DNA from: a virus
Taxonomy: Duplodnaviria > Heunggongvirae > Uroviricota > Caudoviricetes
Reading direction: 5' to 3' (one strand)
DNA length: 64,000 nucleotides
Virus record (IMG/VR): IMGVR_UViG_2681813421_000002
Coordinates: 22,586 to 86,585 of that record
The position numbers and the translations under genes are program-made. The notes below the pieces were generated by a model. The model did no database searches and was not told the origin of the DNA. It worked only from the letters and a program-made list of their open reading frames with translations. Position 1 is the first letter of the stretch, and each line of letters begins with the position of its first letter. This document shows, piece by piece, positions 10,294 to 50,682 of this stretch.

Positions 10294-11235
10294 TTAACTA
10301 ACAATCCAGTCCATAGCAATAACATCCTCTGGAGCTAAATCAATAGCATGGATTTTCCCGTCACGGATGGTGCGCCAGTGCTTTCGTGATCCACCTTCGG
10401 GCCACACCCATATACCTTCAGGCCAGGAAGAACGACGACACACTGTTGCGTATCCAGTCCTGATCTTCTCTCTGACGGTATGTAGTGACAGATTATCCTT
10501 TGGGCTTTCAGGCACAGGATGGTGGATTGCCTGAAACATCCCCATCTTTGGATGATACCAGCGTTTATTGCGTGGTTCTGCCTCCGACATCACCTGCTTA
10601 AAGGCTTTCCGGAAGGGGGCCAGGGCCACAATGGAGCGTCGCGCAAGCAAACCATCTGGAGTTAAAAACTCATGCGTATCGGTGGGAATCCGGAAAGCGT
10701 TAACCAGGTTGCGACATTTGGCTTCAGTCAGGCCACATTTCGCCGCCAGCTGGCGGTAGCCAATGTAGCCTTCCGGAATATTGCCTTTCTTTATTTGCTC
10801 GAGTGTTTCAGCGACCATCGATACTTGTGCTGATACCTCGGCTACCTGGGCATTTACGGCGTTGATCCGGCGTTCATGCTCAAGATGCATTTGCGCCATT
10901 TCAGCCAGGATTTCGGCTTTTGATTTTAACTGTACCCGGGCATTCTCCAGTTCGCGCCAGCGGTCCACCAGCCGGGCGGTGAATTCCGGAGAGAGCTGCG
11001 CGACGACAATGATGCTGTCTCGTTTTCCTTGTTCGCCTTCAAATATGTAAGCCTTGGAAAATCGACGAGGGCCAACTGATTGTTTATTTTCAATTTCCAC
11101 AGATTGTGGAAATTGGATCACACTCTTTTTAGCCAGTGTTTCGATAGTTCTCTTCACACTATCTTGGCGACTTCCTACCAGTTCCGCGATCTCAATGCTG
11201 GTCATTGTCGCTTTTTGAGAGATGGACAGATTCAT
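10294..11235 (-). CDS. ant: Antirepressor-like protein (Rha-type N-terminal domain) with C-terminal DUF2829-like extension
   Basis: 313 aa; N-terminus MTSIEIAELVGSRQDSVKRTIETL (Rha/antirepressor family), paralog of 49975-50682; last ~65 aa (VCRRSSW...WVWPEGG...DVIAMDWIVS) resemble DUF2829. Confidence 0.6.
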   Translation of the reverse strand: MNLSISQKATMTSIEIAELVGSRQDSVKRTIETLAKKSVIQFPQSVEIENKQSVGPRRFSKAYIFEGEQGKRDSIIVVAQLSPEFTARLVDRWRELENARVQLKSKAEILAEMAQMHLEHERRINAVNAQVAEVSAQVSMVAETLEQIKKGNIPEGYIGYRQLAAKCGLTEAKCRNLVNAFRIPTDTHEFLTPDGLLARRSIVALAPFRKAFKQVMSEAEPRNKRWYHPKMGMFQAIHHPVPESPKDNLSLHTVREKIRTGYATVCRRSSWPEGIWVWPEGGSRKHWRTIRDGKIHAIDLAPEDVIAMDWIVS

Positions 11236-36881: not shown

Positions 36882-37144
36882 CCTCTCACTCCATTATTTA
36901 ACGAATAAAAAAGCTGCGGTGCCGGGTACCTCCCGGTGTCCTTTGGCTGGTTATCCACCGTGGACGGGGAAACAAGGAGAAATGAATGGACTGATATAAC
37001 CATTTCCCCGCGTGCGCTTAGCCGCATTCACCGCAATGGTAAGAGCACTTGGCTGGCTGGGCGGCGATGACGCCTGTACGCATTTGGTGATCCGGTTCTG
37101 CTTCCGGCATTCGCTTAATTAGCCAAATACTCTTAACGTTGCAC

Positions 37145-37231
37145 TGGCGGAGAGTAATGGAATCGAACCATCATCGCTTGCGCAATGGGACGGTTTTCAA
37201 GACCGCTTGAGCACCATGCTCCCTACTCTCC
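37145..37231 (-). tRNA. Type II tRNA with long variable arm, anticodon UGA (Ser-like)
   Basis: 87 nt; acceptor GGAGAGT/ACTCTCC, anticodon stem GCGGT/ACCGT with loop CUUGAAA, T-arm GATGG-TTCGATT-CCATT, G73 and CCA. Confidence 0.5.
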
Positions 37232-37365
37232 CGTTATTGTGGCGACCGGTGCTGATCTCCGGCTTGCGGTTATTTCAGACTCTCACGGGCGTTTAATTGC
37301 CCCGCCGAACAGCTCTTTTCCGCAATAGCTGCAATGTCTTTCGCGCATCAGCCTGCGCATTCACC

Positions 37366-37457
37366 ACAATGTTGAGAACACTGGTTGTCACGCTGCAACG
37401 CAACATTTATTCATAGATTGGGATATGACCCCGTTACGCCAGTGTTCTCAACGTTGT
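37366..37457. repeat. 19-bp inverted repeat (18/19 match) separated by 54 bp
   Basis: ACAATGTTGAGAACACTGG ... CCAGTGTTCTCAACGTTGT in the tRNA-cluster intergenic region. Confidence 0.55.
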
Positions 37458-37603
37458 AGTGCCGGTTACGGTTCCGGCCAGGCCTCTTCCTCAACGGGGT
37501 GTTCTCCATACGGACTACCGTTTATTGGTCGTTCCTGCGGTTTATGTTGTGAAGCCAGATGCTTATCTTCTGGTTGCTTCAAAGAGCTGCACTTCATCAC
37601 AAC

Positions 37604-37677
37604 GGTAAGGGTACTTCGTAGGGATTCGAACCCTCTGCCAAGCACGGCGATCTCCGACGTCGCAAAATACCCTTACC
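37604..37677 (-). other. tRNA-like element with T-arm motif but non-canonical secondary structure
   Basis: Contains AGGGTTCGAATCCCT and a 10-bp terminal pairing (GGTAAGGGTA/TACCCTTACC) but I could not fit a standard cloverleaf; directly abuts tRNA-Thr. Confidence 0.25.
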
Positions 37678-37685
37678 TGTTGTGT

Positions 37686-37761
37686 TGGTGCCGGTTAACG
37701 GACTCGAACCGCTGACATCCTGCTTACAAGGCAGGCGCTCTACCAACTGAGCTAAACCGGC
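37686..37761 (-). tRNA. tRNA-Thr (anticodon UGU)
   Basis: 76 nt; GCCGGTT acceptor, GCTCAGTTGGTAGAGC D-arm, loop CUUGUAA, T-arm GGTTCGAGTCC, CCA. Confidence 0.8.
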
Positions 37762-37763
37762 AT

Positions 37764-37840
37764 TGGCGATGGTGGGTGGATTCGAACCACCGACCGACAG
37801 CTTAGAAGGCTGCTGCTCTATCCTACTGAGCTACACCATC
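37764..37840 (-). tRNA. tRNA-Arg (anticodon UCU)
   Basis: 77 nt; loop CUUCUAA, T-arm GGTGGTTCGAATCCACC, CCA end. Confidence 0.75.
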
Positions 37841-38300
37841 ACTTGCCGGGTACGTCTCCGGCGAGGGCTTCCACCTCCGTATGCTTTTCGGCGCACCGCG
37901 CCCTGGCTGCAATTCGGTAACAGGGGATGCACAACCCTGGCTTCCAGCGTGATTAGCGCCTTCAGCATGACGGGATATACCCGTAGTAGGATGTTATCCC
38001 AGAAAGCCATTAATCAATGGCTGTTACGCGGGAGGGACGTAACAGGTAAGGGCGCTGACCAGAAAGACCTGACCCTTCTCATTCATCTGGTTAATCACAC
38101 CAGCACCCTTGCCTGTTATGCCTCCCCGTTCCCTAATACACAGACGGGGACACTCTGCGGTCGATTTTTTGACGGGGGACGACTCATACCCCGTGGCGTC
38201 AGGCTTCTTAGGCCGCTACCATCATCAGATCATCGTTTGCATTTACTTTAATGGTCGGGTTCTAAACCGCCGCAAAGTCGCTAACCATGACGAAAACCCT

Positions 38301-38324
38301 AAAAAAGCCCACCCGAAGATGGGC
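38301..38324 (-). terminator. Rho-independent terminator (minus strand)
   Basis: GCCCA-loop-TGGGC followed on minus strand by TTTTTT. Confidence 0.45.
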
Positions 38325-38344
38325 AAATACGCTACATCTCACAC

Positions 38345-38422
38345 AAGAAAGAAGCCGACTGCCTGAGCTGGATTCACTTTCAAATGCCCGCTGAAAGGGA
38401 TCACAAGTCGGCTTCTTTCTTG
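38345..38422. repeat. Perfect 17-bp inverted repeat with 45-nt spacer
   Basis: CAAGAAAGAAGCCGACT ... AGTCGGCTTCTTTCTTG. Confidence 0.55.
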
Positions 38423-38638
38423 ATGCGGCACTCTCTCCGCCCGTCACCGCTCTGTCTCGGTTGTCGCGTTTGCCACGCCAGCCGTAACGAGGTTTAAAGT
38501 CTTTGCACGTTTCCATCACTCGACTGCCGTCTGTGGCTGTTCGTTGCAGCGGGGGTGCCTCCCCCTGGGGATATCCCCGGCCTTACCCCATTCTTTCAAG
38601 ACACAATGCAAGGCCACATCCGCATAGGTGCATTACTG

Positions 38639-38703
38639 CAACATTAAGGAGACTCAGGGCAAAAGGTAACCGCCACAAAAATCCCTATGCCTCCTTAATG
38701 TTG
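38639..38703. repeat. Perfect 13-bp inverted repeat with 39-nt spacer containing an inner stem
   Basis: CAACATTAAGGAG ... CTCCTTAATGTTG. Confidence 0.55.
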
Positions 38704-38905
38704 AAGACGTGCATTGATGATTAGATGCAGCATGTACCGTTACTCTCTGCCGGACCATCATCAATGAACACCTTAAAAAGACCTTCCGTGGCTCAACATG
38801 TATTGTCGTTTACTCCGCAAAGTGCTCTCTCTGAAACCACTTTCCGCACTAAACCTGCTGAACTTTGGCCTGCACGGTGCCAAAGCGTGCTCTTGCGTTA
38901 CTACA

Positions 38906-39055: not shown

Positions 39056-39076
39056 AATTTAGTTTTCTAACATATT
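39056..39076 (+). promoter_or_regulatory. Operator-like motif (AATTTAGTTTTCTAACATATT)
   Basis: Overlaps the 3-prime end of gene 39075-40283; placed to control minus-strand transcription into the 38.3-39.0 kb noncoding region. Confidence 0.45.
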
Positions 39077-40283
39077 ATTTCCCGTAAAGATCTTCTACAC
39101 CCCCATTCTTCTTATCCCATTCGTTCGCCCATACCCGGCAAGCGTCAATGATTTCCTGACGACGATCTCCTTGCATGAACGGAATGCTTTCATGGAAACA
39201 GCTTGGAATGCAGGCCACACTGAATACAGTATCAAACTCCGTCTGCTTGATTGCCTCCAGCGTCTCCGGACGCATTTTTAATTCATCGATTGGCGCATCC
39301 TTAGAGTCCATAATCCGGCGATATAAGCGCGGAAAATCCGTCTCCAGGTACGCCATAATTTTATCTGCGAGACATTCGTCTATGTCGGTATTCCAGTCCT
39401 TTTCGAAGCCCGGCAGGCGATAGTAAAGCGGCGTTCCCCATACCGATGGGATCACATCCATCGTTAACAGGCGATTAGTTCTGATTTGTTGATGGTAATT
39501 AGCCGTCAGCAGTGCTTCGCCACGCTGCCCAGTTTCCGCAACCAGGCCGTGCGGATACTCATGGATGTAGGCAATGGCATCCCTTCCATCATACATAAGT
39601 GGAAATGTCTCTGGTCTTTGTCCCATGCCACAAGCACGGTTCAGATCGTGACCAAGCTGTGAGCACTCTCGCTTTAATGTTTCGATAATGCTCTGCGCTG
39701 TAGCCAACTTTTTACGCAGTGTGACGCCTTCGCCTTGATAATCAATGCATTGCTGATTGAGCTTGGTTAAACGCTCTTTTAGTTCCCGGCGCTCTCTTTT
39801 CAGCGTGCGGTTATCCTTCTCCGCAACATCCAGCCGCTTTGTCAGGCTTGGCGGATAGTCTTTTTTGTAACGGTTCAAATCGGCTTCGGCAGATTTACGC
39901 AGTGTATTTGCCTGTTCAAGACGCGCTTCCAGATTGCCGATCTCATTACGCATATTCGCGGCAAATTGATTAACTGCATCACCCAGGCTTTCAACTGTCG
40001 CTGATACGCCTGTGACTTGTGAAAAACGGATCAAGCCATCATTAACGGCTTGTTGGTATTCCTCAAACTGATCCACCAGCTTATTGTAATCAACTGCCCC
40101 ATCATCAAGCAGCTTGTTGATTTCCGCCACCAGGTTATCTGTAGTGGCAATGACACTCTCGTGCAGTCGCTTTGACAGGTCATCACCCGGATTCCGTTTC
40201 TGTATAAGAGCGATTTGTGTGCGCAGCGTTTCAATTGCTGTCGAGATAATTTCCAGATTAGAAGTATCAGTGTGTTGACTCAT
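39075..40283 (-). CDS. Hypothetical protein with N-terminal coiled-coil, operator-flanked
   Basis: 402 aa; long heptad-like N-terminal half, globular C-terminal half. Confidence 0.5.
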   Translation of the reverse strand: MSQHTDTSNLEIISTAIETLRTQIALIQKRNPGDDLSKRLHESVIATTDNLVAEINKLLDDGAVDYNKLVDQFEEYQQAVNDGLIRFSQVTGVSATVESLGDAVNQFAANMRNEIGNLEARLEQANTLRKSAEADLNRYKKDYPPSLTKRLDVAEKDNRTLKRERRELKERLTKLNQQCIDYQGEGVTLRKKLATAQSIIETLKRECSQLGHDLNRACGMGQRPETFPLMYDGRDAIAYIHEYPHGLVAETGQRGEALLTANYHQQIRTNRLLTMDVIPSVWGTPLYYRLPGFEKDWNTDIDECLADKIMAYLETDFPRLYRRIMDSKDAPIDELKMRPETLEAIKQTEFDTVFSVACIPSCFHESIPFMQGDRRQEIIDACRVWANEWDKKNGGVEDLYGK

Positions 40284-49978: not shown

Positions 49979-50682
49979 TCACCTCCCCAACCGATCACCT
50001 GGAATTGCCCCATTTTGGGGTGATACCAGCGTTTTCCTCGGTGTTCAGCCTCCGACATCATCCGGTTAAAAGCATTCATGAAGGGAGATAAGGCCACGAT
50101 GGAACGACGCGACAATACCCCCTCTGGAGTTAAAAACTCATGCGTATCGGTGGGAATCCGGTAAGCGTTGACAAGGTTGCGGCATTTGGCTTCGGTCAGG
50201 CCACATTTCGCAGCCAGCTGGCGGTAGCCAATGTAGCCATCTGGCATATTGCCTTTCTTGATTTGCTCAACGGTTTCAGCGACCTGGCTAACCTTTGACT
50301 CAACAGCATGAAGCCGCTTTTGCTGCTGAACTGCATTTGCAGCCATTGCGGCGATCATCTCTATTTCGGTCAACGGCTGGCGTACTTGTTCTTCCAGTTC
50401 GCGCCAGCGGTCCACCAGCCGGGCGGTGAATTCCGGAGAGAGCTGCGCAACGACAATAATGCTGTCTCGTTTGCCTTGCTCGCCTTCGAAGACGTAGTGT
50501 GAATTTTTAACTTTAAATCCTAAGTTATTGATATTTTCGGAAACCTCCATTGGAGGAAGTGGAATAACACCTGATTTACTCAAGCGTTCAATAGTGCGTT
50601 TAACGTTATCCGGGCGACTTCCCACCAGCTCCGCGATCTCAATGCTGGTCATTGATGGCTTTTCAAGAATGCAGATTTCCAT
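49975..50682 (-). CDS. ant: Antirepressor-like protein (Rha-type), paralog of 10294-11235
   Basis: 235 aa; shares N-terminal (MTSIEIAELVGSR...) and central (YIGYRQLAAKCGLTEAKCRNLVNA) blocks with the other copy. Confidence 0.6.
   Translation of the reverse strand: MEICILEKPSMTSIEIAELVGSRPDNVKRTIERLSKSGVIPLPPMEVSENINNLGFKVKNSHYVFEGEQGKRDSIIVVAQLSPEFTARLVDRWRELEEQVRQPLTEIEMIAAMAANAVQQQKRLHAVESKVSQVAETVEQIKKGNMPDGYIGYRQLAAKCGLTEAKCRNLVNAYRIPTDTHEFLTPEGVLSRRSIVALSPFMNAFNRMMSEAEHRGKRWYHPKMGQFQVIGWGGE

What the first reader, a model, noticed from the sequence alone, without database searches (positions are those of the whole stretch)
37366..37457. 19-bp near-perfect inverted repeat with a 54-bp spacer in the tRNA-cluster intergenic region
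An 18/19 inverted repeat is too long for a typical transcription terminator stem and is not followed by a T-run. It could be a recombination site, a protein-binding site, or the stem of a structured RNA processed with the tRNAs.
Basis: seen in the sequence. Interest (0 to 1): 0.5.

Follow-up and report, generated by a model that had tools for sequence, protein, structure and literature searches.

The report
Conserved RNA hairpin in phage tRNA/sRNA array
The inverted repeat is real and is one copy of a widespread, previously unnamed phage RNA hairpin that sits directly in front of a conserved small structured RNA in untranslated operon leaders. It most likely acts as a cutting or insulating stalk when the long transcript carrying tRNAs and small RNAs is processed.

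Summary
The repeat is confirmed and is longer than reported: 23-nt arms at 37362-37384 and 37439-37461, 21/23 complementary, with a 54-nt loop. It is the only repeat of this quality in the 64-kb window; about 0.0004 are expected by chance.

The window is a P1-like phage-plasmid, and the repeat lies in the untranslated leader of the ban operon. That leader is read on the minus strand, like the tRNA genes.

It is one of three hairpin-plus-module units in this leader. In each, a long hairpin abuts a roughly 125-145-nt structured RNA. One of these modules is a sub-threshold relative of the prophage sRNA STnc100.

The same pairing occurs in unrelated phages and prophages of Gamma- and Betaproteobacteria. 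There it sits in leaders after cI-like repressors or between Q antiterminators and holins. Across 52 distinct hairpins the stem sequence changes while pairing is kept, with strong covariation. G·U outnumbers A·C by 96 to 31, which identifies the minus strand as the folded one.

The hairpin is missing where the module starts right at a promoter. The best reading is therefore an RNA processing or insulating stalk, probably cut by RNase III, that also carries a structured loop. No cleavage has been shown.

The parts
37439..37461 (-). Hairpin B (the finding), 5' arm in the transcript: CACUACAACGUUGAGAACACUGG. Its first six bases, CACUAC, could also close the preceding module.
37385..37438 (-). Hairpin B apical region, 54 nt. 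It is predicted to form two small hairpins, one like a degenerate T-arm (GGGGUCAUAUCCC). It is conserved among P1-likes, and a related loop occurs inside differently sequenced stems in other phages.
37362..37384 (-). Hairpin B, 3' arm: CCAGUGUUCUCAACAUUGUGGUG. Its last six bases, GUGGUG, are also the first six bases of the downstream module.
37239..37367 (-). Type-1 module, 129 nt. It has a closing stem GUGGUG/CGCCAC, a first hairpin GCGCA-GGCUGA-UGCGC, a variable middle, and a second hairpin GCCGG-AGAUCAGCA-CCGGU. It is 97-99% identical to copies in lambdoid phages.
37145..37231 (-). tRNA-Ser(UGA), starting 7 nt after the end of the module.
37456..37600 (-). Third module variant: GUGAUGAAGUGCAG ... 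GCCGGAACCGUAACCGGC-ACUAC. It lies between hairpin A and hairpin B.
   Evidence: read from the sequence by analogy with the family. Not tested separately.
37598..37684 (-). Hairpin A, a paralogue of the finding: ACACAAC-A-GGUAAGGGUAUUUUG ... CGAAGUACCCUUACC-GUUGUG. Its loop carries a canonical T-arm, AGGGUUCGAAUCCCU.
37033..37142 (-). Hairpin C, a paralogue: arms 37121-37142 and 37033-37054 with a 66-nt loop. It lies directly after tRNA-Ser.
36908..37035 (-). Type-2 module: GCGGUGAAUGCGG ... CACCGGGAGGUACCCGGCACCGC, followed by a U-run. It matches Rfam STnc100 partially, at 35.1 bits against a gathering score of 47.
37686..37840 (-). tRNA-Arg(UCU) and tRNA-Thr(UGU), upstream in the same transcript. 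The tRNA-Thr CCA end is followed directly by hairpin A.
38031..38127 (-). Hairpin D, with 29-nt arms (GGCAAGGGUGCUGG type). It is a further long hairpin of the same style, upstream of the tRNAs.

Best explanation
The repeat is the stem of an RNA hairpin made from the window's minus strand. It is part of the long untranslated leader of the P1-type ban operon, which also carries tRNA-Arg, tRNA-Thr and tRNA-Ser. It belongs to a widespread phage family in which a helix of about 19-23 bp, with a variable and often structured loop, ends exactly where a conserved small structured RNA begins. That RNA is a relative of STnc100.

Shown here: the helix exists, it is conserved by covariation, it is selected on the transcribed strand, and it is coupled to the module.

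Inferred: the helix works as a processing or insulating stalk. It folds as soon as it is transcribed. At roughly two helical turns of near-perfect duplex it is a natural substrate for RNase III. Cutting would separate the upstream RNAs (tRNAs or the previous module) from the downstream module. It would free the GUGGUG strand, which the hairpin base shares with the module's closing stem. It would also release the apical stem-loop as a piece of about 75-100 nt. What that loop does is unknown.
For: Context:
- The window is P1-like.
- The P1 and P7 annotations place this stretch between the C1-controlled ban promoter and ban, on the strand of the tRNA genes.
- Three hairpin-plus-module units lie in series here.

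Folding:
- Hairpin B folds better as minus-strand RNA: -51.0 against -44.7 kcal/mol, z = -5.1.
- It persists when the whole 561-nt array is folded.

Family:
- 114 of 156 distinct sequence contexts upstream of the module carry a helix of at least 14 bp that ends at the module start. The median is 19 bp and the median loop is 46 nt.

Covariation on 52 distinct hairpins:
- 16 of 23 pairs show changes on both sides.
- There are 129 double-change cells, against 50.5 +/- 5.7 in shuffles.
- The covariation score is 0.352 against 0.173, reached by 0 of 500 shuffles. Slid controls give 0.11-0.17.

Strand and orientation:
- G·U 96 against A·C 31.
- All 21 nearby tRNAs are on the same strand.

Placement:
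- The units sit in untranslated leaders after cI-like repressors, or between Q antiterminators and holins. Often they lie just past a terminator.
- Where a promoter-like sequence (read from the sequence, not tested) lies right before the module, there is no hairpin (loci L015/L054 and L021/L044 types).

The partner module is itself a structured RNA. Its second hairpin has compensatory variants, and variants of its closing stem are wobble-compatible.

Precedent: RNase III cuts dsRNA leaving 2-nt overhangs, and it releases the tRNA in the metY-nusA-infB transcript (PMC5371410 and its reference 46).
Against: - No transcript, RNA end or cleavage data were available, so RNase III is inferred from helix length and context only.
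- The commonest family type keeps a bulged A and a U·U mismatch, and the stem sequence (GGUAAGAGCA/UGCUCUUU) is more conserved than pairing alone requires. That hints at a sequence-specific partner.
- Loops are conserved within subfamilies and are enriched in T-arm-like hairpins (17 of 114, against 2 expected). The loop may therefore be the functional part rather than a by-product.
- Within the P1 clade the few stem substitutions are mixed: two give G·U, one repairs a mismatch and three create mismatches.
- The covariation alignment used hairpins with their loops excised, chosen for having a stable duplex. This leans towards the structure.
Confidence: 0.6

Rival explanations
1. The hairpin is mainly a carrier for its loop. 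The stem presents or releases a small stable RNA, tRNA-sized and sometimes with a true T-arm, that has its own job. That job could be as a decoy for tRNA-binding or tRNA-cutting host factors, or as a regulatory RNA. This overlaps with the best explanation rather than excluding it.
For: Loops are enriched in T-arm-like motifs, 17 of 114 against 2.0 expected. Hairpin A's loop has a canonical T-arm next to the 3' strand. The loop of hairpin B is as conserved as its stem among P1-likes. A related loop occurs inside different stems in P1 unit C' and in L033/L069/L133. In Massilia (L138) and in L109 a whole tRNA-like gene occupies the hairpin slot.
Against: Loop length ranges from 3 to 159 nt and most loops share no sequence. 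No single cargo function can therefore explain why the stem is conserved. ARAGORN and Rfam call no tRNA in hairpin B.
Confidence: 0.2
2. The hairpin is a cis-acting transcription element in a long untranslated leader. It could be a sequestered boxA-like sequence, since the commonest 3' arm reads UGCUCUUU like the rrn boxA. Alternatively its structure could simply keep Rho off the RNA.
For: The units lie in leaders of antiterminated operons (PL and late leaders) and in the roughly 2-kb untranslated ban leader. Most 3' arms contain GCUCUU. The majority type keeps UGCUCUUU even at the cost of a U·U mismatch (columns 16/56).
Against: The boxA-like run lies in the 3' strand of a stable helix, so it would be paired as soon as it is made. 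About a third of the hairpins, hairpin B included (UGUUCUCAAC), lack the motif yet keep the helix. There is no sequence or architectural similarity to HK022 putL. The boxA resemblance is recalled from memory and was not tested.
Confidence: 0.08
3. The repeat is a DNA-level element: a recombination or cassette-boundary site (attC-like or MITE-like), or a single-strand DNA hairpin used in replication.
For: Mosaic breakpoints between P1, D6, P7, RCS47 and Ro157c2 fall at the repeated hairpin and module ends. The 133-nt module is 97-99% identical between P1-likes and unrelated lambdoid phages. The stem base reads ..AAC/GUU.., which is reminiscent of attC core sites. A G·T bias would also fit a hairpin in single-stranded DNA of the same strand.
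Against: No dedicated recombinase travels with the units, whose neighbours fall into about 75 unrelated gene clusters. There are no target-site duplications, and the copies do not share an internal sequence as MITE copies would. Orientation always follows the transcription of tRNAs and downstream genes. The hairpin is absent exactly where the module is promoter-proximal. That makes sense for RNA but not for a DNA site.
Confidence: 0.05
4. The conservation reflects a protein gene on the opposite strand (P1 'plp', a putative lipoprotein), and the repeat is incidental.
For: The P1 and RCS47 records annotate plp and upl over this stretch on the plus strand. The window has a 96-aa plus-strand ORF at 37425-37715.
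Against: The upl region is absent from the window, and the plp frame has a stop before its P1 start. The D6 and P7 records annotate no gene here. The ORF runs antisense through tRNA-Thr. Coding cannot explain compensatory changes in hairpins from unrelated phages.
Confidence: 0.02

Closest known systems
RNase III processing stems in polycistronic stable-RNA or leader transcripts: E. coli metY-nusA-infB (releases the tRNA), the rrn 16S/23S stalks, the lambda N-leader site and the T7 early R1.1-R5 sites
   Same: A duplex of about 20 bp or more sits in an untranslated part of a long transcript, next to tRNAs or other stable RNAs. It is not followed by a U-run. As in the rrn stalks, the stem brackets a structured RNA. 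As in the lambda N-leader site, it occurs in PL leaders of lambdoid phages.
   Different: Cleavage is not shown here. The stem is coupled to one specific downstream module and shares a strand with that module's closing helix. The commonest type also has a conserved sequence, a bulged A and a U·U mismatch. The metY example is cited through PMC5371410; the lambda, T7 and rrn examples are from general knowledge.
STnc100 (Rfam RF02076) and PasD, prophage-encoded Hfq-binding sRNAs
   Same: The modules that follow the hairpins share the STnc100 outline: a UGGUG/CACCA closing stem, AAU plus a first hairpin, and a CCGG..CCGG hairpin before the closing strand. They also share its prophage late- and early-leader neighbourhoods (bioRxiv 10.64898/2026.05.13.724894).
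   Different: Hairpin B itself matches no Rfam family. The window's type-2 module scores 35 bits, below the gathering score of 47. The type-1 module is not detected by the STnc100 model at all. The papers found do not describe the upstream hairpin.
Stable RNAs of unknown function inside phage tRNA clusters (T4 species 1 and 2, rnaC/rnaD)
   Same: Non-tRNA structured RNAs are co-transcribed and co-processed with phage tRNAs.
   Different: No sequence relation was tested. This comparison is from memory only.
HK022 put RNAs (cis-acting antiterminator RNAs at the start of PL and PR transcripts)
   Same: Structured RNA at or near the start of the PL transcript in lambdoid phages that lack N.
   Different: The putL sequence read from HK022 has no similarity. 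put is a 70-nt two-stem RNA (PMC9378689), not a 20-bp perfect stem followed by a closed multi-branch module.
Integron attC sites and MITEs
   Same: Imperfect inverted repeats of about 60-140 bp at the boundaries of exchangeable modules, with AAC...GTT at the stem base.
   Different: There is no integrase or transposase partner, no target duplication and no shared interior. Orientation follows transcription.

Membership tests
Intrinsic (Rho-independent) terminator | A short G+C-rich stem, a small loop and a U-run directly after the stem | tested here: not met
   The stem is 23 bp, the loop 54 nt, and no T-run follows on either strand. The terminator scan gives no call at this site.
RNase III processing stem | About two helical turns (roughly 20 bp) of mostly uninterrupted dsRNA | tested here: met
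   22 of 23 positions pair as minus-strand RNA. The family median is 19 bp.
RNase III processing stem | Lies within a transcribed, untranslated stretch between separately matured RNAs | tested here: inconclusive
   The position between tRNA-Thr and the module plus tRNA-Ser, on the tRNA strand within the annotated ban operon of P1/P7, fits. No transcript data were available.
RNase III processing stem | Staggered cleavage in the stem that depends on rnc | not testable with these tools
   This needs end mapping in wild-type and rnc hosts, or in vitro cleavage.
Rfam STnc100 (RF02076) | A score at or above the family's gathering threshold of 47 bits | tested here: not met
   There is no STnc100 hit on 37362-37461. 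The neighbouring 36915-37035 scores 35.1 bits over model positions 31-147. A full hit of 49.1 bits exists only in locus L015.
tRNA or tRNA-like gene | Cloverleaf with acceptor, D, anticodon and T arms | tested here: not met
   ARAGORN and the Rfam tRNA models call nothing in hairpin B. Only a degenerate T-arm-like hairpin, GGGGUCAUAUCCC, is present in the loop.
Conserved structured RNA (general criterion) | Pairing is kept through compensatory changes in independent sequences, above controls | tested here: met
   16 of 23 pairs have changes on both sides, and the covariation score is 0.352 against 0.173 (0 of 500 shuffles), with slid controls at 0.17 or below. Caveat: the loops were excised and the hairpins were pre-selected for a stable duplex.
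Integron attC site | An associated IntI integrase, and conserved R''/R' cores with extrahelical bases | tested here: not met
   No recombinase is common to the roughly 75 neighbourhood types. Only AAC/GTT at the stem base is shared. Extrahelical-base geometry was not examined.
MITE | Many near-identical copies with terminal inverted repeats and target-site duplications | tested here: not met
   The copies differ completely in their interior and show no flanking duplications.
HK022-type put RNA | A two-stem RNA of about 70 nt with the conserved put sequence at the start of the PL/PR transcript | tested here: not met
   The HK022 putL sequence was retrieved and shares nothing with the hairpin or the module. 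The architecture differs (PMC9378689).

The most novel reading that the evidence does not exclude
The hairpin and its partner may form an undescribed, horizontally mobile phage RNA system. The partner would be a tRNA-shaped scaffold: an acceptor-like closing stem plus two hairpins whose loops, GCUGAU and AUCAGC, can kiss. Its 25-nt 5' end is invariant from Escherichia to Janthinobacterium, and it carries a hypervariable 'cargo' arm that sometimes holds a whole tRNA. The long hairpin in front of it would be a second cargo carrier. Under this reading, phages use the pair to display or release diverse small RNAs from the leaders of their early and late operons. Those RNAs could be decoys against tRNA-targeting or RNA-sensing host defences, or regulators of host genes.
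Probability: 0.2. Interest if true: 0.85.

Novelty: new variant of a known kind. Interest (0 to 1): 0.6.

Why it matters
P1 is a classic model phage, yet about 2 kb in front of its ban gene is annotated only with tRNAs, a 'dicF-like region' and two doubtful opposite-strand ORFs.

This analysis shows that the stretch is a dense array of conserved structured RNAs. The flagged hairpin is a member of a family found in hundreds of phages and prophages, including Shiga-toxin phages. It sits exactly in the leaders where early and late transcription is controlled.

If it is a processing stalk, it explains how tRNAs and STnc100-like small RNAs are cut out of one long transcript. If its variable loops and those of its partner are functional cargo, the family would be a new way for phages to deliver diverse small RNAs. 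Either way it gives a concrete, testable handle on how prophage small RNAs are made.

Tried and rejected
- **Rfam, both strands, permissive thresholds.** The hairpin gives only meaningless microRNA-precursor hits of 24-27 bits.
- **put RNA.** HK022 putL was retrieved and compared. It is unrelated.
- **P1 C1 operator consensus.** No match in the window.
- **Literature.** Searches on the P1 ban operon and tRNAs found nothing, one search failed on a too-short term, and the P1 genome paper is not held.
- **PasA guess.** I guessed that PasA is the RNA just after the module in Q-holin loci. The PasA probe and seed sequences in the supplements of PMC8550237 do not match that sequence, so I dropped it.
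- **A family member in E. coli K-12.** I looked in CPS-53, hoping to use published RNase III maps. The leader is not retained there.
- **RNA.duplexfold energies as a measure of hairpin presence.** Real and shuffled arms were poorly separated, -27 against -19 kcal/mol. I replaced this with explicit helix tracing and pair counting.
- **tRNA association.** Only 9 of 120 modules have a tRNA within 1.5 kb. The element is therefore not a tRNA-cluster feature as such.

Full report
**Observation.** The sequence contains the repeat as described. The repeat finder extends it to 23-nt arms, 37362-37384 and 37439-37461, at 91% complementarity with 54 nt between them. No T-run follows on either strand, and the terminator scan is silent here. 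With a 10-nt seed, arms of at least 18 nt and at most 200 nt between them, the whole 64-kb window holds only five inverted repeats, and this is the cleanest. A 21/23 repeat with a loop of 200 nt or less is expected about 0.0004 times per window. Repeats with 19-nt arms and at most one mismatch occur once in the real sequence and in none of 20 shuffles.

**Where it lies.** The window is a P1-like phage-plasmid (Punavirus); the best matches for this stretch are D6, P7, P1 and RCS47. In the annotated relatives the stretch lies in the ban operon, downstream of the C1-controlled ban promoter, the 'dicF-like region' and the two tRNA genes trnA and trnT. It lies upstream of tciABC or a putative serine protease, then trnI and ban, all on the strand that is the window's minus strand. 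P1 and RCS47 annotate two small ORFs, upl and plp, on the opposite strand over it. D6 and P7 annotate nothing there. In the window, tRNA-Arg(UCU) lies at 37764-37840, tRNA-Thr at 37686-37761 and tRNA-Ser(UGA) at 37145-37231, all on the minus strand.

**Local anatomy.** The finding is not a lone hairpin. On the minus strand the leader contains a series of long hairpins of one style:
- hairpin D at 38127-38031;
- hairpin A at 37684-37598;
- hairpin B, the finding;
- hairpin C at 37142-37033.

A, B and C share their flanks: (C)ACAAC, then the stem, loop and stem, then GUUGYGRUGAAKGCG. Each is followed at once by a structured stretch of about 125-145 nt. That stretch begins GUGGUGAAUGCG... or a close variant. 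It ends with a CCGG...CCGG hairpin and a strand complementary to its own first six bases. The module after hairpin C matches Rfam STnc100 over model positions 31-147 at 35.1 bits, below the 47-bit gathering score, and ends in a U-run. All three hairpins fold better as minus-strand RNA than as plus-strand RNA; for B the values are -51.0 against -44.7 kcal/mol with z = -5.1. Hairpins A and B persist in the minimum-energy fold of the 561-nt stretch 37140-37700.

**Relatives and mosaicism.** Hairpin B is present at 95-100% identity in about 545 P1-like plasmids of Escherichia, Salmonella, Shigella and Klebsiella, and in all sequenced P1-like phages. The order of units differs between relatives. 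P1 replaces 37048-37342. RCS47 places the type-1 module after hairpin A. Some plasmids join hairpin B directly to tRNA-Thr. All breakpoints sit at the repeated hairpin or module ends. The 133 nt downstream of hairpin B are 97-99% identical to a segment in unrelated lambdoid phages such as mEp460 and Stx2 phages. Roughly 720 chromosomal and 540 plasmid places in complete E. coli genomes match part or all of the 249-nt hairpin-plus-module query; chromosomal hits cover mainly the module and none is annotated.

**The family.** It also retrieved 50 species-representative genomes. These include Enterobacterales, Aeromonas, Marinobacterium and the betaproteobacteria Janthinobacterium, Massilia, Undibacterium and Xenophilus.

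Modules keep their ends and vary completely in a middle part; overall length is about 62-200 nt. Three observations support the module as a structured RNA:
- The second hairpin shows compensatory variants, such as GCAGG/CCUGC, GCCAG/CUGGC, GUCGG/CCGAC and GUUGG/CCAAC.
- Variants of the closing strand are nearly all wobble-compatible transitions.
- The second loop keeps AUCAGC, the complement of the first loop's GCUGAU, in 85 of 137 modules.

In 114 of 156 distinct upstream contexts a helix of at least 14 bp ends exactly at the module start. The median helix is 19 bp and the median loop 46 nt, with loops ranging from 3 to 159 nt. Stem sequences differ widely: GGUAAGAGCAUUG, GAUGAGAGCAUUG, GUUGAGAACACUGG (the finding), GGGAAGGACACUGG, CUGUAACGACGCUUC, AUCAAAGAGCGCGGGC, and AUGGCUGCUGA in Janthinobacterium.

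**Covariation and strand.** I aligned 52 distinct hairpins with their loops excised and counted pairs for the 23-bp helix of the finding.
- 16 of 23 pairs have changes on both sides.
- There are 129 double-change cells, against 50.5 +/- 5.7 when partners are shuffled.
- The covariation score is 0.352 against 0.173, reached by 0 of 500 shuffles. Sliding the partner by 1-3 columns gives 0.11-0.17.
- The three outermost pairs (columns 4-6 with 65-67) pair in under half of the sequences, so the conserved helix is about 20 bp.

Among non-Watson-Crick cells, G·U outnumbers A·C by 96 to 31. The helix is therefore selected on the strand equivalent to the window's minus strand.

Three caveats apply. 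The hairpins were pre-selected for a stable duplex. Cells are not independent events. A G·T bias would also fit single-stranded DNA of that strand.

**Context across phages.** tRNA genes lie within 1.5 kb of only 9 of 120 modules, but all 21 such tRNAs are on the module's strand. The commonest neighbours are cI-like repressors upstream and a YfdP-like first gene downstream, which marks the PL early-left leader. The alternative is Q antiterminators upstream and holins downstream, which marks the late leader. In the late-leader cases a terminator hairpin with a T-run often ends 5-15 nt before the hairpin. Other copies sit between structural genes together with tRNAs; KlebP_265 has its own promoter there, and IME207, Tyrion and BUCT554 are further examples.

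In two independent classes a promoter-like sequence, read from the sequence and not tested, lies right in front of the module. One is TTGACA-17-CTACAT between operator-like palindromes (L015, L054, L062, L101, L134). The other is an extended -10, TGTGATAAT (L021, L044, L100, L116). In both the long hairpin is absent, and the predicted start falls 0-10 nt before GUGGUG. The hairpin therefore appears where the module is embedded in a longer RNA, and not where the module already lies at the RNA's 5' end.

**Mechanism.** Shown: a conserved RNA helix of about two turns, on the transcribed strand, fused to a conserved structured RNA, in untranslated leaders.

Inferred: it is a processing or insulating stalk. 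E. coli RNase III cleaves such duplexes leaving 2-nt overhangs, and a known RNase III site releases the tRNA from the metY-nusA-infB transcript (PMC5371410 and its reference 46). The lambda N-leader, T7 early and rrn stalks are further analogues from general knowledge.

Cutting hairpin B would detach tRNA-Arg, tRNA-Thr and the preceding module from the type-1 module and tRNA-Ser. It would free the GUGGUG strand, which the hairpin base shares with the module's closing stem. It would also release the apical stem-loop. I put 0.6 on this reading.

The main rival, which overlaps with it, is that the loop is the functional product:
- T-arm-like motifs occur in 17 of 114 loops, against 2.0 expected.
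- Hairpin A has a canonical T-arm.
- Whole tRNA-like genes occupy the slot in Massilia and in L109.
- Loop families recur inside different stems.

Less likely are:
- a boxA-like or anti-Rho role, because the motif is buried in the helix and is absent from a third of members, including B;
- a DNA recombination site, because there is no partner enzyme and orientation follows transcription;
- the plp ORF, which is broken in this window.

**What is known.** STnc100 and PasD are described as prophage-encoded Hfq-binding sRNAs of common origin, frequent near Q, esterase and holin genes (bioRxiv 10.64898/2026.05.13.724894; PMC8550237). Neither paper describes the upstream hairpin or the type-1 module, and Rfam 15 has no model that detects them. 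HK022 put RNA is unrelated in sequence and architecture (PMC9378689).

I rate the finding as a new variant of a known kind: an RNA processing-type stem, but part of an undescribed, widely distributed hairpin-plus-module unit.

Noticed in passing
window 38200-38300, minus strand; also L001-L005 and L012 ~1900-2040: There is a tmRNA-like tag reading frame: ...UAAAU GCA AAC GAU GAU CUG AUG AUG GUA GCG GCC UAA = ANDDLMMVAA*. For comparison the E. coli ssrA tag, from memory, is ANDENYALAA. It is preceded by GGUUAGCGAC..UUUGCGG, which resembles the 5' part of ssrA. The frame is the same in D6, P1, RCS47 and Ro157c2, one residue different in P7 (ANDDLMMAAA), and reads ANEEMYLAVA* in Klebsiella phage KlebP_265, just after that phage's own promoter. 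Rfam gives only weak tmRNA_permuted hits of 22-26 bits. ARAGORN calls no tmRNA, and I found no acceptor/T-arm/CCA partner.
   Followed up: partly
window 38307-38422, minus strand: An sRNA-like unit: a perfect 17-bp hairpin (CAAGAAAGAAGCCGACU...AGUCGGCUUCUUUCUUG) followed by an intrinsic terminator (GCCCAUCUUCGGGUGGGCUUUUUU). It corresponds to the stretch P1 annotates as 'dicF-like region'. Only weak Rfam hits (MicA, STnc240).
   Followed up: no
window 37764-37840: The first tRNA of the array is tRNA-Arg(UCU) here, but tRNA-Asn(GUU) at the same position in P1, D6, P7 and RCS47. Ro157c2 has an extra tRNA-Tyr. The tRNA complement of this leader is swapped cassette-wise between close relatives.
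   Followed up: partly
window 37185-37328 and 37425-37715 (plus-strand ORFs); L002 1667-2236: The P1 genes upl and plp are annotated antisense to this RNA array. The upl segment is missing from the window. The plp frame has a stop before its P1 start and runs antisense through tRNA-Thr. They are probably not real genes.
   Followed up: partly
module 37239-37367; loci L016-L186: The module's first 25 nt were found as an exact match in prophages of Enterobacterales, Aeromonas, Marinobacterium and several Betaproteobacteria, while its middle is hypervariable. Its two hairpin loops, GCUGAU and AUCAGC, are complementary, so a kissing contact is possible. In L149 and L118 the variable middle contains a complete tRNA-like sequence.
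   Followed up: partly
window 38636-38780, minus strand: Two further overlapping long hairpins with 24-25-nt arms, one with the same CAACAUUAAGGAG... style, lie in the roughly 550-nt non-coding stretch below the pmgS-like ORF (39075-40283).
   Followed up: no
window ~10946-11000 and ~50393-50450, plus strand: Two copies of a stretch of at least 55 nt (…TCCAGTTCGCGCCAGCGGTCCACCAGCCGGGCGGTGAATTCCGGAGAGAGCTGCGC…) lie 39.4 kb apart. They are nearly identical at the start and diverge afterwards. I saw them only as by-catch of a motif search.
   Followed up: no
whole window: No match to the P1 C1 operator consensus ATTGCTCTAATAAATTT with up to 3 mismatches. The immunity and ban-promoter control of this plasmid apparently differ from P1 and P7.
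   Followed up: no
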